This document shows, piece by piece, positions 13,101 through 33,100 of a DNA stretch of 64,000 bases. How positions within the stretch are numbered: position 1 is the stretch's first letter; each line of letters begins with the position of its first letter. The translations under genes were made by a program, and so were the position numbers. The stretch comes from Candidatus Poseidoniaceae archaeon (GTDB lineage: Archaea; Thermoplasmatota; Poseidoniia; Poseidoniales; Poseidoniaceae). The DNA lies in contig CBFIJH010000006.1 in NCBI GenBank assembly GCA_965662895.1, forward strand, positions 56,924 to 120,923, written 5' to 3'. A model generated the notes under the pieces. It did no database searches and was not told where the DNA came from. It saw only the letters and a program-made list of their open reading frames with translations.

Positions 13101-16100
13101 ACCTCAATTACACCGCTCGATGCTGGTCAACGCATAGGAGAGAATGGAGGTGACATTTCTGGCCTCGAAATCGTTGGTGACACCTTACTTGCAAGTGTTG
13201 TTTCAGGTCAATGGTGGAATCAAGATGGAAGCGGCGGAATCGTACAATACGATCTATCATCCAACGCATGGAATGCATCCGTTTTACCTTCTGGACAGGT
13301 CAATCGAGTCACAGCGTTTGAATCATCAAGCGGGCATACATGGGTTTCTTGGGGCGACCTTGGTGTCGAAGTTTACAGTCCAACGGGGACCAAGCTTGGG
13401 TTTTGGGACAACCTTGAATTCCCAATTCGAGAAATCATTGAATACGATGGATTGATTCTTTTTGCCACAGAAGATGGTATTGAACGATTCAACGAAACCT
13501 CATTCGCATGGGAGTCGACATGGACGCCAGGAAATGGAATACCGAACAACATGGGCGATTGGATTGGCGAGTTGTGGACAGATGGAAGCCATCTTGTCGT
13601 TGGATCTGCAACCTTTGCAGGATGGGGCGGATTCCAGCGCGGAATTGTGGGCCACCTCGATGGAACAACAGGAACATGGTCAACGTTTAACACCGGACAG
13701 AATGGTATACCAAACGGATATCCATTGTCAATGAGCGAGTGCGGCTCTTATCTCTACATCGGTTTGTACAACAATAACGGGGGAGTGGCGTATATGGATT
13801 TGAACAGTTCCTCTGTCGTAGGGTCATTCACCACCTCGGTGCTTCAAGATGGTCGGGTCTCTGCCGTGTCGTGTGATACCTCGGACGTCTTGTATGTTGC
13901 ATACAACTTAGCAAATCAAGGTATTTCGAAATACGATACCTCTGCAAGCAGGTGGATTGCAAGAATTACGACAGGAACAAACAACCTACCCGGAGACCCA
14001 GTATGGTTCGATGCGATGGATTATTCCAACGGAAAGCTCATGATCGGCTATGATGATGCAGGAGGATTTGCAATTATCTCAACGCTAGGGGCAGTGTCAG
14101 GACAAGCAAGCCTCCAACGTGTTGGAACTCCCGTAACGTCGGTTAAACACACTGGAACAGAGTGGTTGATCGGTCAAGCTGGTGAAGCAAGCGGCTACTC
14201 ACGCGTTGAGAAATTGGGTGGTTCCGGCTTGTACACGGCATTTGAATTGCCTGCACTGGTCAGTGGAAGCATTCCCTCTATGGCGAGTAATGGGGACAAA
14301 ATTTGGATTGCAACCGAATCCTCAACTGGAGGAAACGGCGGTGGACCAGCGGCCGCAGGAATCCTGCAAGGCACCTTCAATTCAACCGGAGGTATCGAAT
14401 GGGAGGAAGGCTGGGCATTCCCGTTTTCTACCTCCATCAGCGACATGAGATTAGAAGGAACAACCTTGTACGTCTCAACCTCGGGAACAGGACTGTACAC
14501 ATTGGACACATTGACAGGCATCTTACAACGACAAACAGGATCGATTCACAACAATCTTGGTGGATTGGGTGTGCACACTACGAACGGTGTCTCGACCATG
14601 TACGTTGGTTTACTCGGTACATTCTCGACATCTGCTGGAGTCCAATCCTATGATTTGACGGCCCAGCAATTTGGAAACGGTCAACTCCTCTCCGGATTGC
14701 CGTCGGATAATATCCAAGGATTTGCATTTTCCGCAGATCACGTATACGTTGCAACTCAAAATGGAATTGGTCGATGGAATGTATCTGCTGACGATTGGGA
14801 CAATCCACTTACAACCGCAGACGGCTTGCCTTCTTCGAATATTGAAGATGTGAAATTCATCTCCAACTCACTGTACATTGCCTCAGCAAGTGGCCTATCT
14901 CAATACATCCCAACTACAGGTGCGATTAGTACCAACACAACCGCAGATGGTTTGCTTGGAAATTCTGTATGGTCGATTGAAACCTATTCTCCTCCTTCGA
15001 TAAATCAAGCCGTTCAACTTGTTCTCGGTCATGACGGAGTAGGTGCTGAACGGCCAGGGGTATCGATGGTCGATGCTTCCTCAAACGCTGTTGTTTCAAC
15101 CCATCGATTCGACCAACTTCCTTCAAACTACATCACTGCGATAGCATCCGATTATGCCGGCTTACACATTGCCACCGATGTTGGCCCTATGGTCCATTAT
15201 GATGGTTTAACGCAAGAATTTGAAGACGGATTGGCAAGTTTCCAACTTCCATCTTGGCCTGTCTTTCGAATGGACAGTGATGGAACACATCTCATGCTCA
15301 TGGGGCTCAATGCCCTTGCAATTGTCGAAGCACACACAACATCGCATGCAATTGTCAAGTCAACAGCCGTTCAGAGCCCAACAAACGTCGCTGTCGGCAC
15401 CAGCGGGTTTTGGTTAACGACAAGTGACGCTGGACTTCGAGGGTGGACACCTGCTACTGCCTTTGATGAAATGGAAAGCCAAACTTCTCGATCGGCTAAT
15501 CCACTAAACATCGGCTTCAACTCTGAATTCATGGAAATCTCCAACATGACGCACTCTGGCTACCAAATTGATCTCGTTACGCCAGACAATCCAGTTGAAC
15601 TTAACGCATCCATTGGACAGGCTGGTGTTCATGGCTTGCTGTTCCAGACTGTTCCACTCATTATGACTTCACCAGTTTCAAATGCTGCAGTATGGGCAAA
15701 GTCTTCCAAACTGAGATACGATGCAATCCTCGAATTGGACAACTCAACAGGCGTAGAGGATGGTCTACAGTTGGCGATCAACAACGGACAATTGATCAAC
15801 GGAACGAGGTTTGTTCCCATCAAACTCATCTCACCTTCAAACGGTTCAATTGAAGTGCGATTAACATACGACTGGGTTCGATTGGATACGCCCGTTGAAA
15901 TTTCAGATATGTACGACCGCCCTGATGATGGAGGCGGTGCACTTACGGTTGAGTGGACCTTAGTTCATGACCCTGATTTCAGCCGATATCTCGTCTATGT
16001 AAGCGATGAACCGTGGACTGCACTCCCAACTGATATTGATCTTGTAAGTCGAATCATCGATAAATCTGAATCCATACACAGTCGTCTGAAAGCAGATGTC

Positions 16101-18473
16101 ACGACAGCAAATGGCGTACCACTTTCAGATGGAGTGGAATACTATGCCCTTGTTGTCGTGGAATACAACAATGGGAGATACGGAATACCGAGTCAAGTCT
16201 TTGGCCCAGTGACAACCAGCAACGAAGTCCCTGCACCGCCTGAATGGGCAATTGCTCAACCCTTAGACGGTGGTGTCGCCGGTGATTTGGAAACAGAGTG
16301 GTCTAGATGCAACGCTCTTGACCTCCTTGAGACTCGAATTTATGCATCAACTCAATCAATGACCAACATCCTCGGTCTTTCCGTTGTATCCTCCGTCGTG
16401 CCCTCTGAGGGGAACACTACCATCCTTAGTTTGGAACCCGGCAAACCGTACTGGCTTGGGTTCACATGCGTTGATCAAACCGGACAAGAAGATGTCATGA
16501 ATGCAACAATCATTGGGCCCGTGGTTCCAACAGGAGGTGTTGATGACGGTATTGCACCAGCGAAATTGGAAAATGTTTGGGCCATTGATACCCCGGATGA
16601 TGAAGGGGGGCGAATTACGGTCGGCTGGGACAAAAGCCCTGCGGATGATTGTGCATATTATGTCGTTTACATGATTACAGGCGTCGTTTTCACCACATAC
16701 CCATCATCAGTCGCTGGATTTTCAGAGTCGAGCATCATCAACAACTGCGATGACAACTCGACAATCGTTTCCCAAATTGATGGCCTACCTTTGTCCGATA
16801 ATTTGGAGTATTACATCGGTGTTGTCGCCTTTGACAGTTGGCTCAATGGGAATATCAATGATGTTGAAATTGTAACCGCAACGCCACTTGACAATTCAAA
16901 CGGTGCAGCAATGCCGCCAACACGAATTGAAAACATACAGGCATACGATCATCCGGACGATGATGGAACGGCAATCGATGTGGTATGGACTGTCTCAGAT
17001 GCTGGAGATTTTAGTCACTACATTGTATGGGCCGCTGACAAGCCTGTTGATGATGTGGGGTATTTGTGGAATGCATATGGGGACGATCCAGCAAATTGTG
17101 GCTGCATCATGATTGACAAGCAGTGGATTGATGAAGATAAGAATCCAATCGAATTGACATTGAACACTGCCCTCTATGGGGCTGCAACACAACAGGATGA
17201 TCAATTCGGTCCATCCGACACACCAAAGTTGATTCAGCCTGGAACCGAACTGTTCGTGACCGTCACAGTTCACGACGTACAAGGCAATGTCTACACCGAT
17301 TCATTGCTCTCAGCGAGCGTCATTCCAGTGAACAACTTCGAAGATACAACTCCTCCTCCTAGATTGGACAACATTAGCCTCAGTGATCGACCAATGGATG
17401 ATGGTTCAGCGCTCCACCTTGAGTTTGAACTTTCTCCAGCAAGTGACGTCATTCAATACGACGTGTACGCTGCATCTTGGTCCTTTACAAGCGTTGGAGT
17501 AGGAGCGGATGGACCGAATGCTCCGTTGATGACACTCGACCGTAATCCTGACCTACCACTGACCATATCTGAATTGGCAGGAGATTTGCCAGTTCTACCC
17601 GGACAAGAAACGTGGGTCACGGTTGTTCCTGTTGATTCCTCAGCAAATTCGATTCGAACAAATTTGACCGTTGTTTCTGCACAGTCCATCGATGATGGTG
17701 TAACCGACCCAGGCAGTTACTTGCCGAGCATCGGTGGCATTACACTCAAGTGGGTTGAAGAAAGTGAAATTTTGGTGACATGGAACCATTCAACCAATCT
17801 CAACGTCAAAGGCTACCAAGTTCACATCAGTTCTGAAGACTTCATGGACATCACCGATGCGACATTCGTCGGCGAGACGCAAACAGCGAATTCGTATGTG
17901 ATAACAGAGGCTGTTTTCGACAGTCTTGTCAATTCGTCGAATTGGTTTATTTCAGTAACGCCCTTTGATGAAAATGAAGTCCGAAATACTGTGGATGCTA
18001 TGCGAATCAACGCAGTGAATGCTGAAGAACCTGGTGAGAGTGAAAGTTCCGAAAATGGGCTCGAATCGTTGCTAACGACACCAAACCTCGTTGCTACTGG
18101 ACTCGTCCTCATATCACTCTTGCTTCTCATCGCCATCTTCAGAGGAAGAGGAAAGAAGAGTCAGAGTGAGAAGGAGTGGGATATTCAAACAGCAACATGG
18201 GGTATCAGCGATGATGCTTGGAACACGCCAGCACAGTCGAACGTACCAGCTCCGCCACCGGCTGCACCGATTCAAACCGATACCCTCTTCCAAGCCGCCG
18301 ATCGAATCGAACGTCAGGAAAGTGGGCGTGAACAGTACGTTCCGCAAATGCCGGTGATGAACCCAGTCCGAACAAACATCGATGATGCTCTGTTAAACGA
18401 TCTTGATATCGGAAAGCCACAACAGAAATCAAGTTCGGCCATTGATACATCATTCCTCGATGACTTGTTGTAA
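10185..18473 (+). CDS. Giant (2762 aa) cell-surface protein: signal peptide, multiple beta-propellers (regulator-propeller-like LPSN-x-I/V repeats), FnIII-like stalk, C-terminal TM and cytoplasmic tail
   Basis: N-terminal hydrophobic signal; repeats LHSNNV/LPSNDV/LPSDQI/LPSDNI/LPSSNI/LPSNYI with LYxATxxG; FnIII-like units LTVEW/ITVGW/IDVVW...Y; TM LVATGLVLISLLLLIAIF followed by RGRGKK. Confidence 0.85.
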   Translation: MSKWRGDNQRPRKALFLTALMLLASWSVALAGVPLASAHEAEDVISWPLSGSNDTGWVQLDAVVGSDPILSSQATADWILEFAPGAEISNVSLQIHVNGSDGLMIDEPLMVANDIGINLFDWSGLGTLGASDSFDGANPYADRLSPNSASGAGWTLPSNAVITELAFEALAPLDPITSFTPVTIPLYGAVQHPMDGQLYLQSSTSILVLDANNDPAFIDAYDFNDLNSEIVGMGIGPNNNLHVAFSNGMFKLISYDDGTVSDGLPDAGFEIALFEVLSSGIYTMTSGGTLLKLDASNTWSQVVSASSNNWPTSTEVNDLHEQNGILYAATNSGVGRYDLNANQPLSVWDSANVLHSNNVTMMETAGNQVLFASGDNGLARYNWNSGFWLATWNDANWLPSNDVSGIKAFQDTLHIMTGEQLLRYNLTTGVFGSSIPLNDIALVESDENALFAWSPNGERAPSTMMHVATDGGRIVLVEASMQSTVGREIVLASGPSTPQLSDALEHNGILYAAGYSSETIDRFDVASSVWLTPINIGNPVTSLAVTGDTIIAGTLEDGLFLIENGSIRTNIAAGSNPDANSEYITDIAAVGDCTSTIGCQILFVQEYAAFRADVDSTAVGSATLLTSDYFLTGQVAAYAGVGYWASDEGLLRYDIVNETFLAAWGSTGVNRVDNAPVAVVGDVLHMGLAGYGVARKDLSTGEILPPLTASNRGGLLPSDQIYALDTDGSNLYIGTQQGARKWDGNQMTSFGQGSSWQTRPSQFFDFAIESSSTGGSLYAGTNIGVCKYSIATMSIDDCQNVYDGMPNWATYVVGVNSTTVFGGTFSGVGLIDKSSFSVDDTWEATASTSNALVEIIDDIAYIGLTGIGVARWDINNNEWLTTWTEDNALDNGNEEVTSLLADIQPGYIWIGGRDGFQLLGTANGTEFYDIEKSNSLYSGNGNPFDLTMYGNTMYYHQGTSSDSIYGIDIANFTSITPLDAGQRIGENGGDISGLEIVGDTLLASVVSGQWWNQDGSGGIVQYDLSSNAWNASVLPSGQVNRVTAFESSSGHTWVSWGDLGVEVYSPTGTKLGFWDNLEFPIREIIEYDGLILFATEDGIERFNETSFAWESTWTPGNGIPNNMGDWIGELWTDGSHLVVGSATFAGWGGFQRGIVGHLDGTTGTWSTFNTGQNGIPNGYPLSMSECGSYLYIGLYNNNGGVAYMDLNSSSVVGSFTTSVLQDGRVSAVSCDTSDVLYVAYNLANQGISKYDTSASRWIARITTGTNNLPGDPVWFDAMDYSNGKLMIGYDDAGGFAIISTLGAVSGQASLQRVGTPVTSVKHTGTEWLIGQAGEASGYSRVEKLGGSGLYTAFELPALVSGSIPSMASNGDKIWIATESSTGGNGGGPAAAGILQGTFNSTGGIEWEEGWAFPFSTSISDMRLEGTTLYVSTSGTGLYTLDTLTGILQRQTGSIHNNLGGLGVHTTNGVSTMYVGLLGTFSTSAGVQSYDLTAQQFGNGQLLSGLPSDNIQGFAFSADHVYVATQNGIGRWNVSADDWDNPLTTADGLPSSNIEDVKFISNSLYIASASGLSQYIPTTGAISTNTTADGLLGNSVWSIETYSPPSINQAVQLVLGHDGVGAERPGVSMVDASSNAVVSTHRFDQLPSNYITAIASDYAGLHIATDVGPMVHYDGLTQEFEDGLASFQLPSWPVFRMDSDGTHLMLMGLNALAIVEAHTTSHAIVKSTAVQSPTNVAVGTSGFWLTTSDAGLRGWTPATAFDEMESQTSRSANPLNIGFNSEFMEISNMTHSGYQIDLVTPDNPVELNASIGQAGVHGLLFQTVPLIMTSPVSNAAVWAKSSKLRYDAILELDNSTGVEDGLQLAINNGQLINGTRFVPIKLISPSNGSIEVRLTYDWVRLDTPVEISDMYDRPDDGGGALTVEWTLVHDPDFSRYLVYVSDEPWTALPTDIDLVSRIIDKSESIHSRLKADVTTANGVPLSDGVEYYALVVVEYNNGRYGIPSQVFGPVTTSNEVPAPPEWAIAQPLDGGVAGDLETEWSRCNALDLLETRIYASTQSMTNILGLSVVSSVVPSEGNTTILSLEPGKPYWLGFTCVDQTGQEDVMNATIIGPVVPTGGVDDGIAPAKLENVWAIDTPDDEGGRITVGWDKSPADDCAYYVVYMITGVVFTTYPSSVAGFSESSIINNCDDNSTIVSQIDGLPLSDNLEYYIGVVAFDSWLNGNINDVEIVTATPLDNSNGAAMPPTRIENIQAYDHPDDDGTAIDVVWTVSDAGDFSHYIVWAADKPVDDVGYLWNAYGDDPANCGCIMIDKQWIDEDKNPIELTLNTALYGAATQQDDQFGPSDTPKLIQPGTELFVTVTVHDVQGNVYTDSLLSASVIPVNNFEDTTPPPRLDNISLSDRPMDDGSALHLEFELSPASDVIQYDVYAASWSFTSVGVGADGPNAPLMTLDRNPDLPLTISELAGDLPVLPGQETWVTVVPVDSSANSIRTNLTVVSAQSIDDGVTDPGSYLPSIGGITLKWVEESEILVTWNHSTNLNVKGYQVHISSEDFMDITDATFVGETQTANSYVITEAVFDSLVNSSNWFISVTPFDENEVRNTVDAMRINAVNAEEPGESESSENGLESLLTTPNLVATGLVLISLLLLIAIFRGRGKKSQSEKEWDIQTATWGISDDAWNTPAQSNVPAPPPAAPIQTDTLFQAADRIERQESGREQYVPQMPVMNPVRTNIDDALLNDLDIGKPQQKSSSAIDTSFLDDLL

Positions 18474-21515: not shown

Positions 21516-21902
21516 ATGCCTATCTGTCGACTCTGCTCTGGAACCTATCCCCGTGAATTTTTCATTCATGGAAATGGACCAAACACACAAGTTTGTTCCC
21601 GTTGTGGAGTCGAGCATGGTTATGTTAGCAAAGATGAGGTTGCGAACCTCTACGATGATACTCTGAAGTCAGCCCGCCTGAGCACAGTCACACGTCGTTA
21701 TCGTCCATTCATCTATCTGACCGTTCTATGGGGAATTTACATTACCACAGTTCGCGGTATAAATCCATGGGGATGGTACATGCTCATCATGCTGACCTTG
21801 CTCACTCTAGCGTCGATTGTTGTCTTCATTACCAGCGGAGCAAGGTACTCTAGCAACCTAGCCCGATTGACTCCAGACTATGAACGCCCCAAAGGGCATT
21901 AG
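21516..21902 (+). CDS. Zinc-ribbon membrane protein, hypothetical
   Basis: CRLC...CSRC at the N-terminus and two C-terminal TM segments. Confidence 0.7.
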   Translation: MPICRLCSGTYPREFFIHGNGPNTQVCSRCGVEHGYVSKDEVANLYDDTLKSARLSTVTRRYRPFIYLTVLWGIYITTVRGINPWGWYMLIMLTLLTLASIVVFITSGARYSSNLARLTPDYERPKGH

Positions 21903-21906
21903 TTCA

Positions 21907-23202
21907 TCACTTTGAATGTATTCTCAAGACATCTCCATCGGAGAGTTGATGATCTGCACCAACAACTCGACGTGTTCGTCCATCCACACCCTTGATGAAA
22001 CCATCACCGAGATCGGAGTGGACCTTGTAAGCAACTTGTTTTGCTTGAATTCCTTCTGGTACAACGAGAGCATCAGGAAGAACATTGCCATCTCCATCCG
22101 TCCACTGAGTTTCATCTTGGACAGGATACACGACGATACGTTTGAGCTCTTCAAACAACACTTGGTCGAGTAGCGGAAGGATACCAGTGCCTTTCATGTT
22201 CTGTAGACGTTCTGCCAATACTGCAAGACCCTTCTGTTGTGCTTCACTCATCGATTTTTCTTGATTTAATTCGAACGAGGTGCTTCCGAGTGTGTAGGTA
22301 ATGAAGCCTGCTTTGCTTGCTTGGCGTAGTGCAAGTTCGGTTTCAGCAGAGCAAGGTGTAAATGAAGGAAGCACTGTTTGGAAGTGCTCGACTACACCTT
22401 CAGGTGCCAAATCCGCTTTGTTTCCTGCTACAAAGATTGGAAACAGGTGCTCGCGTAACGACGATGCAAGGAGCATCAGGACGTTGTCTGGCCAATCCCA
22501 TGGTGAGGTCATATCGGAGTGATTTTGAGAAAAGGCGTCAAAAGCGCGTTGGCATAACACTTCTGTTGCGCCTAAACCGGAGAGACGCTCCTGTAGGAAC
22601 TTTGTGAAACCTTTCACGCCTTCAGCTTGTATTCGCCGAGCTCCTCTGGACCATCCATCTTTGACCAACCCAAGAATCCATGCATCCAATTCATTGGTTA
22701 GAAAATCCACTTCAGCTTGTGCTTGCTCAATCGCTTCTTCCTTCGTGCTTTTCACACCTGTAGGATTGCCTTCGATGTCTGTTGTACCTGCAACATCAAT
22801 CACTTGGATTAATGCATCACAATCTGCTAAATCAGAAAGGAAGGCATTTCCACGTCCCCGACCTTCACTCGCTCCAGGAACCAATCCCGCAACATCGACA
22901 AGCATGCAGGGTACAAAGCGCTGATGTCCATCGCAAGATCCAGTCCTTGGCGTACAGATGCTCCCCCCTCGTTCTTGAGGAAACTGGGTACGCCCATCCT
23001 CCTCCAATCGTTTTCGCAAAACTCCACATGGACAAGGCTTGCGACTTGGAATGAAAGAAAATCCTACATTCGGTTCGATGGTACAGAACGGATAGTTTGC
23101 AATATCTACAGGGATGAGTGTTGACGCGGCAAAGAATGTCGATTTTCCGACATTTGGCTTTCCAACCAAACCAATACGCACGGATTGACCGCCTCGCTTC
23201 AC
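21907..23202 (-). CDS. ychF: Archaeal YchF/Obg-family translation-associated GTPase with TGS domain
   Basis: GKPNVGKST, ANYPFCTIEPN, Cys cluster, DVAGLVPGA, GNKAD and C-terminal TGS (AYKVHSDLGDGF). Confidence 0.9.
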   Translation of the reverse strand: MKRGGQSVRIGLVGKPNVGKSTFFAASTLIPVDIANYPFCTIEPNVGFSFIPSRKPCPCGVLRKRLEEDGRTQFPQERGGSICTPRTGSCDGHQRFVPCMLVDVAGLVPGASEGRGRGNAFLSDLADCDALIQVIDVAGTTDIEGNPTGVKSTKEEAIEQAQAEVDFLTNELDAWILGLVKDGWSRGARRIQAEGVKGFTKFLQERLSGLGATEVLCQRAFDAFSQNHSDMTSPWDWPDNVLMLLASSLREHLFPIFVAGNKADLAPEGVVEHFQTVLPSFTPCSAETELALRQASKAGFITYTLGSTSFELNQEKSMSEAQQKGLAVLAERLQNMKGTGILPLLDQVLFEELKRIVVYPVQDETQWTDGDGNVLPDALVVPEGIQAKQVAYKVHSDLGDGFIKGVDGRTRRVVGADHQLSDGDVLRIHSK

Positions 23203-25160
23203 TCTTCTTCAGATACGCCTGAACGAACACGTGCAATTGCAATATCAAGTTCAGGTAGGTTTACGCGACCATCACCATCAAGATCGACAAATTCCATCAG
23301 CTTGGCAATGTCCCAAGGAGGTAAGTCTGCAATTTCTGCATTTCGCAATGCTTGCTGGAGTTCATATCCGTCAATGAGTCCAGAGTCGTCCAAGTCAATT
23401 GAGCGGAAGAATTCGAAGATACTGATTTCCTTCTTTTCAAGATAGTCCGACAGCATTTCAAGTTCATTCTTCTCCACAGGGAATTCATCGATTTCATCAT
23501 CATGCAATGTTGAGGAGACTTCAATAATCGTCATACCGCCTTCGTCTTCAACATCCGACCCAATTACAAGAATTGTGTCGACGCCGACACCGCGCTGCAA
23601 GAGTTTACGAATCGAGGATTCACCAGGCTGCATTGAGTAACGAGAGATGTCCGAGGTCGTCGAGACCGATGTATCGACTTTCATACCACCAATCGAGGTG
23701 CGAATGAGATTGAGGAACAGCAGGATGACACCGATGGAACCAAAATAAAACAAAACAGCTGCAGTAAGGCTGAAGCCACCATCTGTCATAACGACATCTT
23801 CACTTCCGGAATCAAGAAGAGCTTTTTCTGTGAAGTCTCCCATGAGCTTCGCCACCGTTGATGTTACGCCACCGAAAGCAATCAACATCGTTGAGAGTGA
23901 GGCAGATGAAGGGGAAGCAAGTTGGCGATCTCCCGCAAGAGGATAGGATTCAGCAACGCAGGCAACGGCCATCAAGCCGCCAACGGTCCACATGAAGCCA
24001 ATGTCAACGGTTTGAGCCATGTCGTTCAAAGCTCCAAGGCCAATGAAAACATCAAGCGAGGTGAAATAACCGCCAAGAGCGTACAATGGGAAGAATACCA
24101 TGGCAAGAGTTGCGGCCAATGCACCAGGTCGTGAAACAACACCGGTTGCATTGCTGAGCGATGTCATGATGATGTTCACAGCACCTGCCAAAATTGGAAG
24201 CAATGCAAGCGTCATCAAGATTGCACCGATGTTCTCAAGCAACGTTCCAGCATCTGCTGAAGAGAGCATGAACGGTGGAAGCGTGAAAAAGAGAAGAAGA
24301 AGGCTTGCCTTTGTCATCGAATCGGACCAAATCGGTCGGCTCGCCGCTCGTGGAACAACGTGGTAAGCCACAGCGAAGATGAGAGCAAGAAGTGTCCACG
24401 ATTGAGACATACGTTCGCCTAGCCAAACGGTTTGAGTTGAATCGACAAGTTCGCCAAAGAAACGAAACTGTGAACCAAAGATAAACGATGCCAGGGCCAT
24501 AAACATGAACCAGTTGCTCGCTGAAACAACCTCACCTTTTCGTTGGCCAACAGTAATCAGAACATTGATCATGACTGCGATAATGATGAAGGATCGTAGA
24601 GCATGAAGGAATAAATTTTGAATAAACGCCTCATTTGTTGCGGATAAGTCAAAAATAAGTCCAAGGATGACCGGCAGGAGCATTGATGAAATTGTTAGAA
24701 CCGAAAAGAGGAGGCCAGTTAGGCTTGCATTCGCTTCGCTTGCAAGTCGACCCGCTCCTGCTCGCGCTGCAGCGACGAGCCCACCACCAATGAGAATAGA
24801 CATGAGACCTGTCATCAAGGTAACATCTACGAATGTGTTGAGTGCGCTTCCGTCATCGTACTCCCAACCTATGCTTGCAAGTGAGTCAAGTGCACTCGCA
24901 TCGTAATCATGCCAAAGAGCGAGGAATGTTCCAATAGCGGCAAATGTGAGCCATATCATTCCAAGATTCATCCATGTTTTGGATCCGTTTCCTCTCCCAT
25001 CGTTAAACAGGTCAACAATTCCTGCTGGTGCTTTGTTCAGAAGGAAGAGGCCAAATTGACGCATCGGTGCTGCCATGTTACCAATCCCACGCTGAACGTA
25101 GTACGTAGCAAAGCCAACAACGATGAAGAAGAAAATCAGAGCGGGGAATACTGCATCCAT
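23199..25160 (-). CDS. Polytopic membrane protein resembling cbb3-type oxidase subunit I (CcoN fold, His ligands absent) with two C-terminal EF-hands
   Basis: About 13 TM segments; CcoN-like segments QRKGEVVSASNWF, AYHVVPRAASRPIWS and YPLAGDRQLAS; EF-hand loops DLDDSGLIDGYE and DLDGDGRVNLPE; GAGGTGA SD. Confidence 0.75.
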   Translation of the reverse strand: MDAVFPALIFFFIVVGFATYYVQRGIGNMAAPMRQFGLFLLNKAPAGIVDLFNDGRGNGSKTWMNLGMIWLTFAAIGTFLALWHDYDASALDSLASIGWEYDDGSALNTFVDVTLMTGLMSILIGGGLVAAARAGAGRLASEANASLTGLLFSVLTISSMLLPVILGLIFDLSATNEAFIQNLFLHALRSFIIIAVMINVLITVGQRKGEVVSASNWFMFMALASFIFGSQFRFFGELVDSTQTVWLGERMSQSWTLLALIFAVAYHVVPRAASRPIWSDSMTKASLLLLFFTLPPFMLSSADAGTLLENIGAILMTLALLPILAGAVNIIMTSLSNATGVVSRPGALAATLAMVFFPLYALGGYFTSLDVFIGLGALNDMAQTVDIGFMWTVGGLMAVACVAESYPLAGDRQLASPSSASLSTMLIAFGGVTSTVAKLMGDFTEKALLDSGSEDVVMTDGGFSLTAAVLFYFGSIGVILLFLNLIRTSIGGMKVDTSVSTTSDISRYSMQPGESSIRKLLQRGVGVDTILVIGSDVEDEGGMTIIEVSSTLHDDEIDEFPVEKNELEMLSDYLEKKEISIFEFFRSIDLDDSGLIDGYELQQALRNAEIADLPPWDIAKLMEFVDLDGDGRVNLPELDIAIARVRSGVSEEE

Positions 25161-25170
25161 TCATTTCACC

Positions 25171-25443
25171 TCAATCTGCAAGAACCTCGCCTGCTAGTGT
25201 TGACACAATAGCGCCAAGTCCTATGATGAATCCGAGGAGGTAATACCAGATGCCAGAGCCGCCAAGGTTGGACATCAATGGAACGATATCTCCAGCAACA
25301 GGGATATTGTCCCAACCAAAGATTGTACTGAACAGTCCAAACATTCCAATTGTTACGACTGAGATTAAGACGAGAATGATACGGCTGGATGATGGTTCTG
25401 CAGTTCCGATGACTGCATCGGGGAGTTCTGTACTGTTCGACAT
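25171..25443 (-). CDS. Small 2-TM membrane protein, hypothetical
   Basis: 90 aa with two hydrophobic segments; stop codon overlaps the SD of the downstream CcoN-like gene. Confidence 0.7.
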   Translation of the reverse strand: MSNSTELPDAVIGTAEPSSSRIILVLISVVTIGMFGLFSTIFGWDNIPVAGDIVPLMSNLGGSGIWYYLLGFIIGLGAIVSTLAGEVLAD

Positions 25444-25544: not shown

Positions 25545-26711
25545 TCAGGGAGAGCGAAGAATTTCAGTAAGTGAGCCACGTCGTGGCATTGAGGTTCCGA
25601 GTGGAACAGGGATTGAACGGTCGTTCAGAAGTTCCTGATTCCAGCGACCTTTGCACGTACAATCCAAGCCTTGGAACTCATCCAGAGAACCTGAAACCGC
25701 ATACCGCTCGATTGCAGCGACAACCTCTGAATCGCACTCACCACAATTGTGAGATCCTCGGATTTTACCTCCAGCTGTTGGGTGTATAATAAGACGTGAA
25801 ATTTGATCATCATCTCCGTTCTTACCACCATTTGGATGTACAATGTGATGGCTTTGCTGGATAAGCTCCACCAACGACCATAGCCACGGTGGCCGGTATT
25901 CCCGATGTCGGTGAAGCCGATCAATGATTGTTCCACGTTGAATATTCATTGGATTAATCGAGATTTCATCGCTCCGTTCGGCAACTGCAGCGATCCAATG
26001 AATGCAATGATCAAGCGCATCTGCTTCGCTCATAAATGGAGGTTTGAACATCAAATAGGTCTTGACTCGGAGTTTAAATTTCCTGAGTCGTTCAACTGCA
26101 CGATCCCACGAAGCAACCGAAAATCCCTTGTTCACGTGGAACCGAAGTACTTCATCATCATACGCTTCAAGTCCAATTGCAACGGTAAAATTTGGATTGA
26201 TTGATGTCGCCCATTCCAATTTCTCTTCTGTCAGTTGTTCAGTACGACTTTCCACGATAAGTTCTTTTCCGAGGTCAAAACAATCTCGGAGAACTGTTTC
26301 TTGAAAATCAACTGGAATTTCTCGGTCCTCAAGCAAAGACCCGGAAGTGTACACCTTCACCATCGCATGATTTTCGAAATTGTTGAACTTCTCCTTTGCA
26401 TGCTGCCACTGTGCGTGGAGATCCTCGCTGTTCACATCGTCTCGAGTATCATTGAAGTAGCCACAAAACGTGCAACCGGATGACCACCACCAGTGACATC
26501 CTTTCGTTCGAAGAATAACTGTTACAGCACTACATGGCTCACCATGGATTGTCATTTCGGGTGTTGAATAGACCGTCGCAGGGAAGGATGCATCCCAGGA
26601 CTGCTGGCGCTCCTTCGCCCATGGTGTATTTGCTGGTGCTTTCACAAGATCATGAATCTTGAGACTTTTTGAGTCTTCGCCGAGCATGGTAAGGCCTTTG
26701 CCCGATGACAT
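25545..26711 (-). CDS. raSEA: Radical SAM protein of archaeosine biosynthesis (RaSEA family)
   Basis: TVILRTKGC-x7-CTFCGY, KVYTSGS, VESR, AIGLE, INPMNIQRGT, YRPPWLWS and RGSHNCGEC...CTCK. Confidence 0.88.
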   Translation of the reverse strand: MSSGKGLTMLGEDSKSLKIHDLVKAPANTPWAKERQQSWDASFPATVYSTPEMTIHGEPCSAVTVILRTKGCHWWWSSGCTFCGYFNDTRDDVNSEDLHAQWQHAKEKFNNFENHAMVKVYTSGSLLEDREIPVDFQETVLRDCFDLGKELIVESRTEQLTEEKLEWATSINPNFTVAIGLEAYDDEVLRFHVNKGFSVASWDRAVERLRKFKLRVKTYLMFKPPFMSEADALDHCIHWIAAVAERSDEISINPMNIQRGTIIDRLHRHREYRPPWLWSLVELIQQSHHIVHPNGGKNGDDDQISRLIIHPTAGGKIRGSHNCGECDSEVVAAIERYAVSGSLDEFQGLDCTCKGRWNQELLNDRSIPVPLGTSMPRRGSLTEILRSP

Positions 26712-27591: not shown

Positions 27592-28371
27592 TCAATTATC
27601 AGACCAAGGGTCGACGTCCGAATTCCAGGTTTCTTGTGATGAAGATTCGGAATCGTCTTCTTCGGGTTTGGTTTCTGCAGGTGGTTCCTCAGCAGCGGCT
27701 TCCGTTTCCACTCCTTCTTCGGTGCTTGCCTCTTCATCAGTTTCAGGATTTTCTGAAGTTTCTTCTTCGGTGATTGATTCTGCTTCTTCGACAGTCATCT
27801 CTGCTGCTCGGGCCTCAACCATCTCGTCCATTCGTTCTGTAAAAGCACGAGACATGTGTTGCGATTGTCGCTCTGCTTCGACTGCGCTCTCAATCATCTC
27901 ATATCGTTGCTTGATTGCTTTGTTCAAATCTTCAAACAGCGTCATGTGTGCAACATACCAATCATCCCGCGCTTTCATTTCTGATACGGCGAGTTTCAAG
28001 TCGTTGTCAAGTTCTTCTGCGATTCCGAAGACTTTGCCAAGACGATCTTTCTCACGTGAATACTTTTCCTCCATTGTTTGAAGGGCAGGCTCAAGATGTT
28101 CAACCCGCTTGTCAGCCTTCGTCGCTTTCATTTCGAGTTCGCGAATTCGGAAATCTTTCTCAGCGATGAGGGATTCTTGTGCTTCTCGCTCGATCTCTTT
28201 GTCAATGATTTCTTTTTCAAGAACTTCGATTTCAGCTCGAGCATCAACGAGTTCTTTTTCTTGAGTTTCATAGGCTGCGAAGAGTTTTTTCAACCGGTCC
28301 GTTTCAGTGGCGAGTGCCTCTTCAAGTTGGCTGATTTGAACTTCAGGGGTGAGGGTTCCTTCTTCACTCAT
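27592..28371 (-). CDS. Coiled-coil protein with acidic disordered tail, hypothetical
   Basis: Heptad-rich E/K/L/A sequence for about 190 aa, then a Glu/Ser/Thr-rich tail ending W..DPW. Confidence 0.75.
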   Translation of the reverse strand: MSEEGTLTPEVQISQLEEALATETDRLKKLFAAYETQEKELVDARAEIEVLEKEIIDKEIEREAQESLIAEKDFRIRELEMKATKADKRVEHLEPALQTMEEKYSREKDRLGKVFGIAEELDNDLKLAVSEMKARDDWYVAHMTLFEDLNKAIKQRYEMIESAVEAERQSQHMSRAFTERMDEMVEARAAEMTVEEAESITEEETSENPETDEEASTEEGVETEAAAEEPPAETKPEEDDSESSSQETWNSDVDPWSDN

Positions 28372-29482: not shown

Positions 29483-30109
29483 ATGAAGCAGGCAACGGAC
29501 ATATTCAACGACTGGGCACATCGAGGCAAAGATGAGGGTATGGAACGCGGGCATGGGCCTTCGGTCAGAGAAATGCTCGATGTTGCCATCGAACGTGTTC
29601 TTTCCAAGAACGAATCGTTTTCATTCGCTGATTTAGGATGCGGAAATGGTTGGGTTGTTCGATTGGCTGCTCAACATGAACAGTGTGTGAAAGCGGATGG
29701 ATTCGATGGTGCTGAGCACATGATCGAGAAGGCAAAAGCAGTTGATGGTAACAACGGATATCACCTTGCAATGTTTCCACAAACCAAACCTCCACAACAA
29801 TACAACCTCATTCATTCTATGGAATTCATCTACTATCTGCACGACCCGAAACAGATGTTGCAAACCATTCACGATGATTGGATGACTGAAGGAGGTTGGG
29901 CTGTCATCGGCATCGATCATTATCGCGAAAATGAGGAAAGTCTCGGTTGGCCACAAGCACTCGATGTGCACATGTCCACCTATTCCGAGAAGGAATGGAT
30001 TGCGATGTGGAACGACGTTGGCTTTACGAATATCCACGCTTGGCGAGCGAACAAGTCACCAGGCAAACCCGGAACGTTGGCCATCATTGGGATGAAAACT
30101 CAACATTGA
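29483..30109 (+). CDS. Class I SAM-dependent methyltransferase
   Basis: FADLGCGNGW motif I, GFDGAEHMI and SMEFIYY. Start at MKQAT (29483). Confidence 0.85.
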   Translation: MKQATDIFNDWAHRGKDEGMERGHGPSVREMLDVAIERVLSKNESFSFADLGCGNGWVVRLAAQHEQCVKADGFDGAEHMIEKAKAVDGNNGYHLAMFPQTKPPQQYNLIHSMEFIYYLHDPKQMLQTIHDDWMTEGGWAVIGIDHYRENEESLGWPQALDVHMSTYSEKEWIAMWNDVGFTNIHAWRANKSPGKPGTLAIIGMKTQH

Positions 30110-33100
30110 TCCCGAGTTCCATTCCTTGTGGGCCGCACATTCTCACATCGCCTTTGAAGAACGGACATTTCTTACAGGTATCGATAAATTCCATAGGGAG
30201 GCGTTTCGGTTCAACCGTACCGTTCGGATCAGCCGTTAACTTGGCCATCCAATCAAGGAGATTGAGCAGTTCCTTTTCAGCTTCTACGAACAGTTTCTCA
30301 GGCATTTCAACGAGCCTTCCTGTAGTTGCTATGAGTAAAGCAGGAGGGCGAATCTCTCGACGTTGATCGATTGGTTTTCTCTCCTCTTGACGGCGGTAGA
30401 CCAAAGAATAGAGGGTGAGTTGAAGCCTGTGATTTCGCAACATTTGATGTTCAGCATCGTTTAGTGGGGAAAACGAAAGTGGTTCTTTCAACGACTCGGC
30501 CAACGGGTGTGTTTCGAGTTGCGATTCGCGTGCACCAGAGGTTTTCAAGTCAACAACCTGCAACCATGATCGCCCTCCTTCAACACCTGCCAAGACAAGA
30601 TCTGCTTGTCCTTCAAACAGCAATTTTACGGAATTGATGAGAGTTAAATGCGACTGATTGAGTTGGGTGAGGGGCGTTCGTAGGAGACCTTCAAAGTTGA
30701 TATCATGATCATAAAAGAAAGAGGCTTCCGTACGCAATCCTTCGATTTGACGGCCATTCACTTCTTTGCCATCAACCATTCTTCCCAATGCTCCATTTGT
30801 GAGGCGTTGTGCAAGTTCAATGATTCTCTCACGGGTTTGTTTTTGTTCATCATAGGAGAGACGGTGCCACTCGGGTTGCGAGTGCAATGCGTCATCAATT
30901 TCCTCGGGTGAAAGAAGACGATTGTTTTGAGCGTTCAGCCATACTGGACCAAGATCAAACTTTTCCGAGATTATTGTTGCAGGGTTGGCCAATCCAATCT
31001 CGACAAGTCTGTGAAACATCGAACCAAATGATGTTGCAGTAGGCCAACCAATCGATGTTTGTTGCAAATCTTCTCCTCCTGAGCGGTCTTTGAACTCCTC
31101 TTCTGTATGGGTCGGACTTGAATATCCTGTGATCTGAAACGGTTCGCTTTGCCAGCCTCTCATATGCGATAACCAGTATCGACGGCGGCATGAGTTTGCA
31201 GTATCTAATCCGTGTGCAGTCATCCGGAGTAAAGGTGATTGGTGAACCAATTGTTGTTCGATTTCCGACTCCACGCTTGATTGTGCCAGTTGGTCTTCAA
31301 TCGCTAACCAATTCGATAAAACAGATGTTGATGTTTGGGTTGAAAAGCAATCGGGATGATGATACATCCGTAACTGTTGAAGCGAGCCTTCCATGAACCC
31401 GCTGGTTTGGAAAAGAGCAAAGGGGTTGAATTTGAGTTCTTGCTCGCCGTATTCCTCCAAGCGTTCACCAAGTACGTCGTTTTCAAGGCTCCAAACTTGT
31501 TCATTTCCAGAGCACAGCCCCATGTATCGGAAACCGTCAAGCATCAAATCACCCATGTTGTTGCCCTTTGACTTCACCTTCATCGTAACCATCGAATTTT
31601 CATCGATGGAGCAGGAAGCATTTGGAGAGCCAACGAAAATGAGGCGGTCTTTGACTCGCGTGAGTGCTACGTAGAATTGGCGTCGTAGTTCCGCTTGGTT
31701 CTGGGCCCGGTTCAATTGTTCTGCTAACATCCAAAGAGCATCTTCGGGTTTGTCCTTTGATTTCCATGGCTGAATCCTTCCAGCAATGACATCGGGCGTA
31801 ATGAGAACGTTGTTTTGTGCTTCAATGCTTGAACTACGGCGCCCTGCTTCAAACAGTCCAGTAACCACGACAACTGGCGCCTGCAGTCCTTTTGCACCAT
31901 GGATTGTCATGATTTGAATGGCTCCACTGGTTGGTGTTGAACTCGCTTGAGGCCCCTTATTTCCAAGTGTGGAATAGGCACGCATTTGTTCTCGAATTGC
32001 TCCTGGTTCATGGCCTGTATCCGAACCAATTTTTTGAACCAATGCACACCACATCTCGGCCACCTGCCTTTCGGACTCATCGGGGAATGCAATCAACAAA
32101 TCGCTGTAATCCAATACGGCGTCGAAAACCTCGTACATTGCTCCGTGTTGAACCAATTTGGAAAATGCAGTAAGAAGTGGTCCTTGTGGTTCTGAAGCGA
32201 AATATTCTGCAGAATGGAGGAAATAATTTTCCACATCGCTCGCCTCAAAAATTTCCTCAAGTTGAATGGAGGAGGCCCCGATGATTGGCGAGCGGAGAAG
32301 AGAATGCGCAGCATGTCTCGAATGAGGTTGGGCAAGGAGATCCAATACTGCCATCAATGGTTGAACCACTGGTTGTTTGAGCAACTCTCCTTGCTTATCC
32401 GCCATGACTGGTAAACCTCTCGACTGAAGACGCTCAACTAGATCAGGAATATGTTTGCGAGAATGAACCAGAATCATGATGTCGTCAGGAGATACGCAAT
32501 CTTCGGGTTCAACATCGACATATTCACCTTCTTCAGCGGACCATATACGGGTTGGTGAACCTCGAACCAAAGCATCGAGCCTTGATGCGATGAGTTCATG
32601 TTCCAAATGGCGAAGATTTGCATTTCTTGCATCATAGAGATTGTATCCTTCAAGCATATCCAAAGGCAATACCTCGGCATTTCCTTGTGTTGGAAGAAGC
32701 CATTCAATCGCTCCAACACGAGAGGTTTCACGACCTGCCTCAAGCGGTTGCGCCGTTGCATGAAAATCGCCCGGGAACTGGTGATGTCGAGCATCGAATG
32801 TATCATCAAACATGTTATTGAGCGTACGAAGCAATCCAGGGGCTGTTCGGAAATTTGTTCGCAATTGAATGTGCCCCTCTGCGCGCTCTTGGGCACGATC
32901 ATCATGCAATGCAAGCCCTGCATCATCAATGCCAAACGAAACAAAGTCCCAAGGAGCTGACTGCTCTTCTCGAGAATAGTCGGATGCCTGAATAAACGAG
33001 CCCGATTCACCCCCTGCACCAACTGGGCGAGGGTCACGACCAAATCCTTCTCGAGTAAACGATTCCAACCTTGATTCATTTTCTTCCATTGCATTCGCAA

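What the first reader, a model, noticed from the sequence alone, without database searches (positions are those of the whole stretch)
23199..25443. Heme-copper oxidase pseudo-enzyme (CcoN-like fold without His ligands) fused to EF-hands
Seen: the 653-aa protein follows cbb3 CcoN segment by segment (CcoN sequence recalled from memory): AAARAGAGRLASE ~ VVQRTCQARLFSD; ITVGQRKGEVVSASNWF ~ GTIMKRKTKHIYVGNWF; AYHVVPRAASRPIWSDSM ~ MYYFVPKQAERPVYSYRL; ESYPLAGDRQLAS ~ YHLVPKVFGREQMHS. None of the six heme/CuB histidines (RPLHTN, WWYGHN, GPHH, GHVH positions) is present; the protein has only four His, none at those positions. The soluble tail has two canonical 12-residue EF-hand loops (DLDDSGLIDGYE and DLDGDGRVNLPE). 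No ccoO/ccoP cytochromes are nearby. It is preceded by a 90-aa 2-TM gene and overlaps the start of ychF by 4 nt. Inference: a respiratory-enzyme scaffold repurposed as a Ca2+-regulated channel, transporter or sensor, possibly with the small protein as a subunit. Paired EF-hands are uncommon in archaea.
Basis: partly seen in the sequence, partly recalled or inferred. Interest (0 to 1): 0.82.

Follow-up and report, generated by a model that had tools for sequence, protein, structure and literature searches.

The report
Heme-less oxidase scaffold with EF-hands
An abundant group of marine archaea keeps, as a universal single-copy gene, a relative of the catalytic subunit of a bacterial respiratory oxidase that has lost every metal-binding histidine, so a respiratory-enzyme frame seems to have been reused for a job that is not respiration.

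Summary
ORF 23199..25160(-) encodes a 653-aa protein with four His and a Pfam-significant EF-hand pair. A profile of 26 homologues hits cbb3 oxidase subunit CcoN in the PDB at E 1e-16. A membrane-only profile finds only four chains among 177,635 PDB sequences at E<=10, and all four are CcoN. Reversed and shuffled controls score below 6 bits, against 56-62 bits for real CcoN.

The six heme/CuB His positions and the cross-link Tyr are not conserved. No member keeps more than 2 of the 6 His.

The gene was found in 252 of 255 sampled Poseidoniales genomes. It had no real match in 45 sister-family genomes of the class or in 230 other Thermoplasmatota. It is under strong purifying selection, with dN/dS about 0.03. 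A 90-aa two-helix gene always precedes it, with a ribosome-binding site between them.

The EF-hands were seen in 7 of 7 Poseidoniaceae loci and 0 of 8 Thalassarchaeaceae loci, so Ca2+ control is an add-on and not the core function.

The function is unknown: it is a cofactor-less membrane scaffold, and whether it acts as a channel or an anchor is untested.

The parts
25171..25443 (-). Gene for a 90-aa protein with two hydrophobic helices, the putative small partner. Conserved motif SGIW[FY][FY]; invariant G13, E16, P17, S20, P48, W66, G71, G75.
   Evidence: It lies directly upstream of the oxidase-like gene in 15 of 15 fetched loci plus one locus of a third family. No Pfam or NCBIfam hit.
25161..25170 (-). 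10-nt spacer holding a Shine-Dalgarno-like GGTGA right after the small gene's stop codon.
   Evidence: The same arrangement (stop, GGAGGTG or GGTGA, then ATG 9-16 nt later) occurs in 13 of 15 related loci.
23199..25160 (-). Gene for the 653-aa cofactor-less CcoN-like protein.
24975..25160 (-). Residues 1-62: an extra N-terminal helix plus a conserved cytoplasmic loop (F39, K43, D50, G57). P. stutzeri CcoN has no counterpart.
   Evidence: topology count.
23673..24974 (-). Residues 63-496: the core homologous to CcoN helices 1-12. Residues at the former ligand sites are F110, R250, F291 (Tyr site), F297, M298, V385 and I387.
   Evidence: Family profile against PDB CcoN at E 1e-16. FixN at 56-62 bits. 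hhalign probability 96-97.5%. Ligand map.
23574..23624 (-). Residues 513-529: conserved cytoplasmic motif G..(T/S)IR.LL..G.G.DT after the last helix (G513, R518, G524, D528, T529).
   Evidence: Invariant or near-invariant in 26 homologues, including those with no EF-hand.
23247..23420 (-). Residues 581-638: EF-hand pair. Loops are at 23361..23396 (DLDDSGLIDGYE) and 23250..23285 (DLDGDGRVNLPE).
   Evidence: Pfam PF13499 at 37.9 bits against a cut-off of 30; calmodulin-type hits in the PDB; loop conservation.
21907..23202 (-). Downstream YchF-related GTPase gene, a conserved neighbour.
   Evidence: Downstream in 14 of 15 loci, the 15th ending at a contig end, and in L052. The start codon is ambiguous.
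25545..26711 (-). Upstream radical SAM gene RaSEA (archaeosine tRNA modification), a conserved neighbour.
   Evidence: TIGR01210 at 286.5 bits against a cut-off of 212. Upstream in 15 of 15 loci.

Best explanation
Shown by sequence analysis. The 653-aa protein descends from the catalytic subunit CcoN of cbb3-type (C-family) heme-copper oxidases. It has lost the two heme axial His pairs, the three CuB His and the cross-link Tyr, so it cannot reduce O2 or NO. It has about 13 helices: an extra N-terminal helix followed by CcoN helices 1-12. The predicted topology is N-terminus outside and C-terminus inside. It is a single-copy core gene of the order Poseidoniales under strong purifying selection. 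It is co-transcribed, and probably translationally coupled, with a 90-aa two-helix protein.

Inferred. It works as a cofactor-free membrane scaffold.
- The old metal cavities are filled by bulky side chains (F, M, V, I). In many members an R/K (helix 6) and D/E (helix 10) pair may sit where the binuclear centre was.
- The best-kept parts are the cytoplasmic loops shared with CcoN, an invariant Asn and a conserved Thr in helix 8, and a conserved motif after the last helix.
- The working surface therefore most likely faces the cytoplasm.
- My single best guess, at about 0.3, is a gated proton- or cation-conducting module built with the small protein.
- Its cytoplasmic tail carries lineage-specific regulators: an EF-hand pair for Ca2+ in Poseidoniaceae, and a SAP domain in many members.
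For: Homology.
- Profile A1 against the PDB hits 9g6b_A at 1e-16, 3mk7_A at 1.2e-16 and 6xkw_n at 1.5e-16.
- The membrane-only profile A2 gives 4 hits at E<=10 among 177,635 distinct PDB sequences, all CcoN.
- Family member P0152 passes the Pfam COX1 cut-off (42 bits against 34.8). P0151 hits TIGR00780 ccoN at 2e-9.
- S. meliloti FixN score 56-62 bits, NorB E 0.13, and the genome's own A-type COX1 gives no hit.
- hhalign probability is 96-97.5%.
- Controls: reversed sequences score below 0 bits; 300 full shuffles reach at most 5.6 bits; 300 block shuffles reach at most 3.6 bits.

Ligand loss.
- His counts at the six sites are 0, 4, 0, 0, 0 and 4 of 26. Tyr is present in 1 of 26. No member has more than 2 of 6.

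Topology.
- K+R count is 18 inside against 3 outside.

Core gene.
- Found in 252 of 255 Poseidoniales genomes, with no stop codons in any listed match. Not found in the other Thermoplasmatota sampled.

Selection.
- Median dN 0.063 and dN/dS about 0.03.

Partner gene.
- Adjacent in 16 of 16 loci. A Shine-Dalgarno-like element follows its stop codon in 13 of 15 loci and in the window.

Tail.
- Of 26 homologues, 18 have EF-hands and 13 have SAP.

Possible charge pair.
- All 12 members with R/K at the helix-6 site have D/E at the helix-10 site.
Against: - No structure model could be made, so the 12-helix COX1 fold is inferred from sequence profiles and hydropathy only. Helix 11 falls below my hydropathy threshold.
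- The window's own protein gets no Pfam COX1 or ccoN hit even at E<=10. The link needs the family profile.
- The helix-10 register differs by 10 residues between HMMER and hhalign. Neither register gives a conserved His.
- Four of 26 members keep a His at the helix-6 site and 4 of 26 at one helix-10 site.
- The membrane domain is Met-rich (25 of 540 residues), so non-His metal binding is not formally excluded.
- For the conduction guess, few polar residues are conserved inside the helices. The upper part of the CcoN proton path (my recalled Y317, E323, H243, T215) is not kept: 0, 0, 0 and 1 of 26.
- The R/K-D/E pairing rests on related sequences and may reflect only a few events.
- Binding of the small protein is not shown.
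Confidence: 0.6

Rival explanations
1. One reading: the scaffold is in essence a Ca2+-regulated channel, transporter or sensor, and the EF-hands are the control element of the core function.
For: The EF-hand pair is canonical and conserved. It lies on the cytoplasmic tail of a polytopic membrane domain. From general knowledge, this layout is common in Ca2+-regulated channels and carriers.
Against: The EF-hand region is absent in 8 of 8 Thalassarchaeaceae loci and in 8 of 26 aligned homologues, while the membrane core and tail motif are kept. EF-hands are also attached to many unrelated proteins in this genome: GyrA, a zinc-ribbon protein and a lectin/PPC protein. No flux or binding data exist.
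Confidence: 0.2
2. Membrane anchor or tether: the dead oxidase frame only holds cytoplasmic modules (conserved tail motif, EF-hands, coiled coil, DNA-binding SAP) at the membrane, for example to link nucleoid or partners to the envelope.
For: The tail is modular: 13 of 26 members carry a C-terminal SAP, some have long coiled coils (P0138, L052 at 857 aa), and 18 of 26 have EF-hands. The membrane domain evolves fast, at 24-30% identity between the two families, against 51-60% for the neighbouring genes. Conserved residues cluster on the cytoplasmic face.
Against: Many Thalassarchaeaceae forms end about 17 residues after the tail motif and carry no module. Even so, the 13-helix core and the small partner are kept under strong selection. 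A 13-helix anchor is far more than anchoring needs.
Confidence: 0.2
3. Still a redox or metal protein that uses unconventional ligands (Met, Asp, Lys, Tyr) for heme or copper.
For: The membrane domain is Met-rich, with 16-42 Met per member. Y472 and N329 are invariant and D386 is frequent. Some characterised oxidase relatives use Lys or Met as a heme ligand (Murali 2024, PMC11214002, passages read).
Against: No Met, Cys, Lys or His column inside the helices is conserved at 90%. The ligand sites hold F, V, I, M and G. No electron-donor subunit was found: no FixO in the genome and no cytochrome gene in the conserved locus.
Confidence: 0.05
4. Chance or compositional similarity: the protein is an unrelated polytopic membrane protein, or a decaying pseudogene.
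For: The window protein alone has no COX1 hit. HMMER reports a large bias term of 24-28 bits for the hits.
Against: Only CcoN chains are hit in the whole PDB sequence set. Shuffled, block-shuffled and reversed controls stay below 6 bits. Pfam COX1 passes its cut-off on one member. The frame is intact in every listed match, and dN/dS is about 0.03.
Confidence: 0.03

Closest known systems
CcoN / FixN, catalytic subunit I of cbb3-type (C-family) heme-copper oxidases (PDB 3mk7, 5djq, 9g6b, 6xkw; TIGR00780)
   Same: Sequence-profile homology runs over helices 1-12. Shared motifs lie in the cytoplasmic loops 2-3, 4-5, 6-7 and 10-11 and in the helix-8 P...N...T pattern. The inferred topology is the same.
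   Different: All six His ligands and the cross-link Tyr are lost. There is an extra N-terminal helix and a long cytoplasmic tail. No CcoO or CcoP partner was found. The host is archaeal. The score against TIGR00780 is far below its 583-bit cut-off.
gNOR, a proposed nitric oxide reductase family of the same superfamily (Murali et al. 2024, PMC11214002; passages read)
   Same: It is a superfamily member with a changed metal site.
   Different: gNOR replaces one active-site His with Asp. [quoted passage not shown] Here none of the six is conserved.
Orphan CcoN subunits of Pseudomonas aeruginosa (bioRxiv 10.1101/171538; listing and abstract start only)
   Same: They are stand-alone ccoN-type genes outside a full cco operon.
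   Different: From recall, these keep their ligands and enter working cbb3 complexes. This family cannot.
Halobacterial fam02696, a hypothetical family with distant similarity to oxidase subunit I (Meheust et al. 2022, PMC9258230; passages read)
   Same: It is an unannotated archaeal family recognised only by profile comparison as related to oxidase subunit I.
   Different: It belongs to a different lineage and is said to sit beside oxidase or NOR genes. The present family sits between tRNA-modification and GTPase genes. The paper's supplements could not be read, so whether it lists this Poseidoniales family is unknown.
CydA' of archaeal cytochrome bd (bioRxiv 10.1101/2021.01.16.426971; listing only; content recalled)
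   Same: It works like a precedent: a paralogue of a respiratory oxidase subunit kept without its heme sites.
   Different: It belongs to another superfamily, and it still serves as a partner within an active oxidase.

Membership tests
Heme-copper oxidase superfamily, subunit I (Pfam COX1 PF00115) | Significant sequence-profile similarity to subunit I | tested here: met
   Family profile against PDB CcoN at E 1e-16. Member P0152 scores 42 bits against the 34.8 cut-off. hhalign probability is 96-97.5%. The window protein alone gets no hit.
Heme-copper oxidase superfamily, subunit I (Pfam COX1 PF00115) | 12-helix core fold | tested here: inconclusive
   Hydropathy gives 12 clear helices plus one inferred from the alignment. 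The alignment covers CcoN helices 1-12.
Heme-copper oxidase superfamily, subunit I (Pfam COX1 PF00115) | Six conserved His: two for the low-spin heme, one for the high-spin heme, three for CuB/FeB | tested here: not met
   His is present at the six aligned sites in 0, 4, 0, 0, 0 and 4 of 26 members, with at most 2 per member. The window protein has F110, R250, F297, M298, V385 and I387.
Oxygen-reducing heme-copper oxidases | Cross-linked active-site Tyr | tested here: not met
   The aligned column is F in 18 of 26 and Y in 1 of 26. The window protein has F291.
cbb3 oxidase CcoN (NCBIfam TIGR00780 equivalog) | Score above the curated 583-bit cut-off | tested here: not met
   No hit for the window protein and none in the six-frame genome search at E<=10. 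The best family member reaches 36.9 bits.
cbb3 oxidase complex | CcoO (FixO) and CcoP cytochrome c partner subunits | tested here: not met
   PF02433 is not found in the 92%-complete genome at E<=1. The conserved locus holds RaSEA, the small protein and a GTPase. CcoP was not searched separately.
EF-hand pair (Pfam PF13499) | Two helix-loop-helix units with 12-residue loops: acidic or polar residues at positions 1, 3, 5, 9 and 12, and Gly at 6 | tested here: met
   37.9 bits against a cut-off of 30. Both loops are canonical and the ligand positions are conserved in homologues. Ca2+ binding itself cannot be tested with these tools.
SAP domain (Pfam PF02037) | C-terminal SAP motif | tested here: not met
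   Absent from the window protein. Present in 13 of 26 homologues.

The most novel reading that the evidence does not exclude
[quoted passage not shown] The frame is a cbb3 CcoN, probably taken from bacteria by the ancestor of Marine Group II archaea. A charge pair (R/K in helix 6, D/E in helix 10) replaced the binuclear centre. Together with a two-helix partner, it now serves as a gated ion-conducting or signalling device. Its cytoplasmic tail was later fitted with Ca2+ (EF-hand) and DNA (SAP) modules.
Probability: 0.2. Interest if true: 0.9.

Novelty: new variant of a known kind. Interest (0 to 1): 0.78.

Why it matters
[quoted passage not shown] A 2024 survey calls the loss of one of them a first (PMC11214002).

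Here a whole order of very abundant marine archaea keeps a CcoN-derived protein with none of them conserved. It is a universal, single-copy, strongly selected gene that every source names only 'hypothetical protein'.

If confirmed, three things follow.
- The oxidase frame can have a life without redox chemistry.
- It would give a clean natural apo-scaffold for asking what the protein part of an oxidase does by itself.
- It would add a lineage-defining membrane component to organisms that are still uncultured.

C-family oxidases are described as sparse in Archaea, so the origin of this gene is itself a question about gene transfer.

Tried and rejected
- ESM Atlas did not hold the exact protein. 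Stored homologues P0040 and P0086 are held but have no model, and the feature search returned only the family's own clusters.
- The search for related loci with alignment A1 failed because no stretch was conserved enough. I used the genome search instead.

Searches that found nothing useful.
- The look-up of sequencing runs: no RNA holder was listed. There were twenty DNA holders from 8 marine-type studies, one of which may be the source. I did not lay reads, because contigs of DNA runs cannot show expression.
- A search for a fused small-protein plus oxidase-like form among longer proteins found none, which is weak evidence.

Hits rejected.
- The single match in a sister family (G001, E 4e-4) is a 74-aa frame with five stop codons, so I rejected it.
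- P0233, a 1088-aa hit to residues 361-445, gave a scatter of unrelated low-complexity Pfam matches, so I dropped it.

Readings rejected.
- Pseudogene: rejected.
- MFS or another fold: rejected.
- Retention of the whole CcoN proton path: not supported.

Recalled material.
- The list of CcoN proton-path residues (T215, Y223, S240, H243, N289, T293, Y317, E323, P. stutzeri numbering) is recalled.
- I only checked that those residue types stand at those positions in the 3mk7_A sequence printed.
- Papers that would confirm the list were not held.

Literature.
- I used ten full-text searches.
- None returned a paper describing a His-less CcoN-like family or naming this Poseidoniales protein. One search was swamped by lysyl-oxidase papers.
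- Supplements are closed, so the family tables of Meheust 2022 could not be checked.

Caveats on counts.
- dN/dS: my crude ORF filter kept 17 of the 30 loci L002-L031, one of which is the window itself. Twelve of the 17 comparisons gave a usable dS. dS is saturated (median 2.4), so the ratio is approximate.
- The ORF-picking regex caught only 6 of 16 loci. I therefore took the EF-hand presence by family from the alignment extents.

Full report
What is there.
- The minus strand carries, in order:
  - a radical SAM gene at 25545..26711;
  - a 90-aa ORF at 25171..25443;
  - a 653-aa ORF at 23199..25160;
  - a GTPase gene at 21907..23202.
- NCBIfam names the first RaSEA (archaeosine tRNA modification, 286.5 bits against a cut-off of 212). 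It names the last a YchF-related GTPase (412 bits against 387).
- The 653-aa protein has His only at 84, 186, 267 and 553.
- It has a Pfam-significant EF-hand pair at residues 581-638 that resembles calmodulin-type domains in the PDB.
- Its first 500 residues give no Pfam or NCBIfam hit, even at E<=10.

Is the CcoN resemblance real?
- Homologues are plentiful: one search gave 301 hits. One search gave 438 representatives at E<=1e-3, of which 45 were at E<=1e-30. Source names point to Poseidoniales (Marine Group II archaea).
- A profile of 26 full-length, diverse homologues (A1) hits three solved cbb3 CcoN chains at about 1e-16, over profile positions 110-449 against chain positions 61-415.
- A profile without the soluble tails (A2) finds four chains at E<=10 in the whole PDB sequence set of 177,635 distinct sequences. 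All four are CcoN. No NorB, no A- or B-type subunit I and no other membrane protein appears.
- One family member passes Pfam's own COX1 cut-off: P0152, 42 bits against 34.8, residues 60-436 on profile positions 4-404 of 436. In all, 3 of 26 members hit COX1 at E<=10. Another member hits the ccoN model at 2e-9.
- Against three FixN proteins taken from S. meliloti pSymA, the profile scores 56-62 bits. NorB from the same plasmid gives E 0.13. The genome's own canonical COX1 gives no hit.
- hhalign gives 96-97.5% probability.
- Controls: reversed FixN scores below zero, 300 shuffles reach 5.6 bits at most, and 300 block shuffles that keep the hydrophobic pattern reach 3.6 bits at most.
- The homology is therefore sound, and it is specifically to the C-family.

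Metal ligands.
- On the profile alignment, the His of helix 2 falls on F110, and 0 of 26 members have His there.
- The CuB His of helix 6 falls on R250. The column holds R 7, K 5, Q 4, H 4 and 6 other residues.
- The cross-link Tyr falls on F291. The column holds F 18 and Y 1.
- The two His of helix 7 fall on F297 and M298, with His in 0 and 0 of 26.
- The two His of helix 10 fall on V385 and I387, with His in 0 and 4 of 26.
- No member keeps more than two of the six.
- hhalign prefers another register in helix 10. That register needs a 10-residue deletion and also gives no His.
- No column inside the helices holds a conserved His, Cys, Met or Lys.
- The replacements are mostly bulky and apolar. 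I read this as filling of the old heme pockets (inference).
- One lead concerns a possible charge pair. All 12 members with R/K at the helix-6 site have D or E at the site between the two helix-10 His positions. Members with small or apolar residues at the helix-6 site mostly do not. These sequences are related, so this is a lead and not a test.

Architecture.
- Hydropathy shows 12 clear helices. A thirteenth, matching CcoN helix 11, is inferred from the alignment.
- The first helix and the following conserved loop (F39, K43, D50, G57) have no counterpart in the 474-residue P. stutzeri CcoN.
- With the CcoN topology, K+R counts are 18 inside and 3 outside. The tail is therefore cytoplasmic.
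- The residues shared with CcoN lie mainly in the cytoplasmic loops 2-3, 4-5, 6-7 and 10-11 and in helix 8. In helix 8 the Asn is kept in 26 of 26 members and the Thr in 23 of 26.
- After the last helix comes a motif kept in all 26 members, including those that end soon after it: R518, G524, D528, T529.
- From recall, the helix-8 Asn and Thr and Y223 belong to the lower part of the single proton-input path of C-family oxidases. The recalled upper residues are not kept. I could not confirm the residue list from a held paper.

Distribution, selection and context.
- Six-frame profile searches found the gene in:
  - 138 of 140 genomes of the window's family;
  - 113 of 114 genomes of the second family;
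  - 1 of 1 genome of a third family of the order.
- All listed matches have intact frames. The three genomes without a match are 80-90% complete.
- The sister families of the class gave 0 real matches in 45 genomes. The one hit is a frame with five stop codons.
- The rest of the phylum gave only that same spurious hit among 230 genomes.
- Against same-genus copies, median dN is 0.063 with saturated dS. The ratio is about 0.03 and stays low in the membrane part, the linker and the EF-hands alike.
- In 15 of 15 diverse loci the order RaSEA, small protein, oxidase-like gene is kept. The GTPase follows in 14, and the fifteenth locus ends at a contig end. A locus of the third family shows the same order.
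- The small protein is conserved at 31-66% identity, with a SGIW[FY][FY] motif.
- Its stop codon is followed by GGAGGTG or GGTGA, and then by the next ATG 9-16 nt later, in 13 of 15 loci and in the window.
- The membrane protein diverges faster (24-30% identity between the two families) than its neighbours (51-60%).

The tail is modular.
- Of 26 homologues, 18 have EF-hands and 13 have a C-terminal SAP domain. Some have long coiled coils.
- The EF-hand region aligned in 7 of 7 loci of the window's family and in 0 of 8 loci of the second family.
- In the window's genome, EF-hands also occur on a zinc-ribbon protein, on the C-terminus of GyrA, on a lectin/PPC protein and on two proteins of unknown function.
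- Ca2+ sensing is therefore a lineage-wide add-on and not the core function of this protein.

How it most likely works.
- Shown: it is a CcoN descendant without metal ligands. It is conserved, selected and paired with a small membrane protein, and its tail lies in the cytoplasm.
- Inferred: it is a redox-dead scaffold whose conserved surface faces the cytoplasm.
- Among the possible jobs I put a gated proton- or cation-conducting module first, at about 0.3. The reasons are that the lower part of the old proton entry is kept and that an autonomous two-gene unit fits transport.
- A membrane anchor for cytoplasmic modules comes next, at about 0.2.
- Residual metal chemistry comes last, at about 0.05.
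- None of these could be tested here.

Comparison with what is known.
- A 2022 study of archaeal hypothetical proteins notes Poseidoniales-specific families with calcium-binding domains. It also notes a halobacterial family distantly related to subunit I. In the text I could read it does not link a Poseidoniales family to oxidases (PMC9258230). Its supplements are closed.
- All public names seen for this family are 'hypothetical protein' or 'EF-hand domain-containing protein'.
- I file it as a homologue of CcoN that fails the functional membership tests of an oxidase: a new, cofactor-less variant of a known fold family.

Limits.
- There is no structure model, no complex model, no expression data and no earlier-findings look-up.
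- The fold claim rests on sequence profiles.

Noticed in passing
P0190, no window coordinates: A 783-aa V/A-type ATPase subunit I (Pfam V_ATPase_I, E 7.7e-30) carries an inserted EF-hand pair. That pair is 51% identical to this protein's tail (query residues 564-649, E 2.4e-20). The same Ca2+ module therefore seems to have been placed on another membrane bioenergetic protein.
   Followed up: partly
L058:59-2875 (G000 contig C11): The genome's DNA gyrase subunit A has a single EF-hand at its extreme C-terminus (residues 906-925, PF13202, E 3.1e-5).
   Followed up: partly
window 21516..21899 (+): A 128-aa ORF has an N-terminal CxxC...CxxC pattern and two hydrophobic helices and gives no family hit. 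It is conserved at 55-60% identity next to the GTPase gene in 5 loci of the window's family.
   Followed up: partly
window 27592..28371 (-): A 259-aa acidic, coiled-coil-like protein has only a weak SMC-like match (E 0.0034). It is conserved near this locus in both families of the order.
   Followed up: no
window 25171..25443 (-), residues 3-5: The small protein starts with an N-x-T/S sequon (NST, NTT, NAT, NNT) in 5 of 6 sequences of the window's family. This would fit an outside-facing, glycosylated N-terminus.
   Followed up: no
window 10185..18473 (+), 30084..38746 (-), 55687..59973 (-): There are very long ORFs of 2762, 1657+1230 and 1428 aa, typical of the giant surface proteins of these archaea. 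I did not examine them.
   Followed up: no
L001 (G000 contig C20, 569-1912, minus strand): The genome's only canonical COX1 match (481 bits) lies in an 800-aa open frame, longer than subunit I alone. This suggests a fusion with another oxidase subunit.
   Followed up: no
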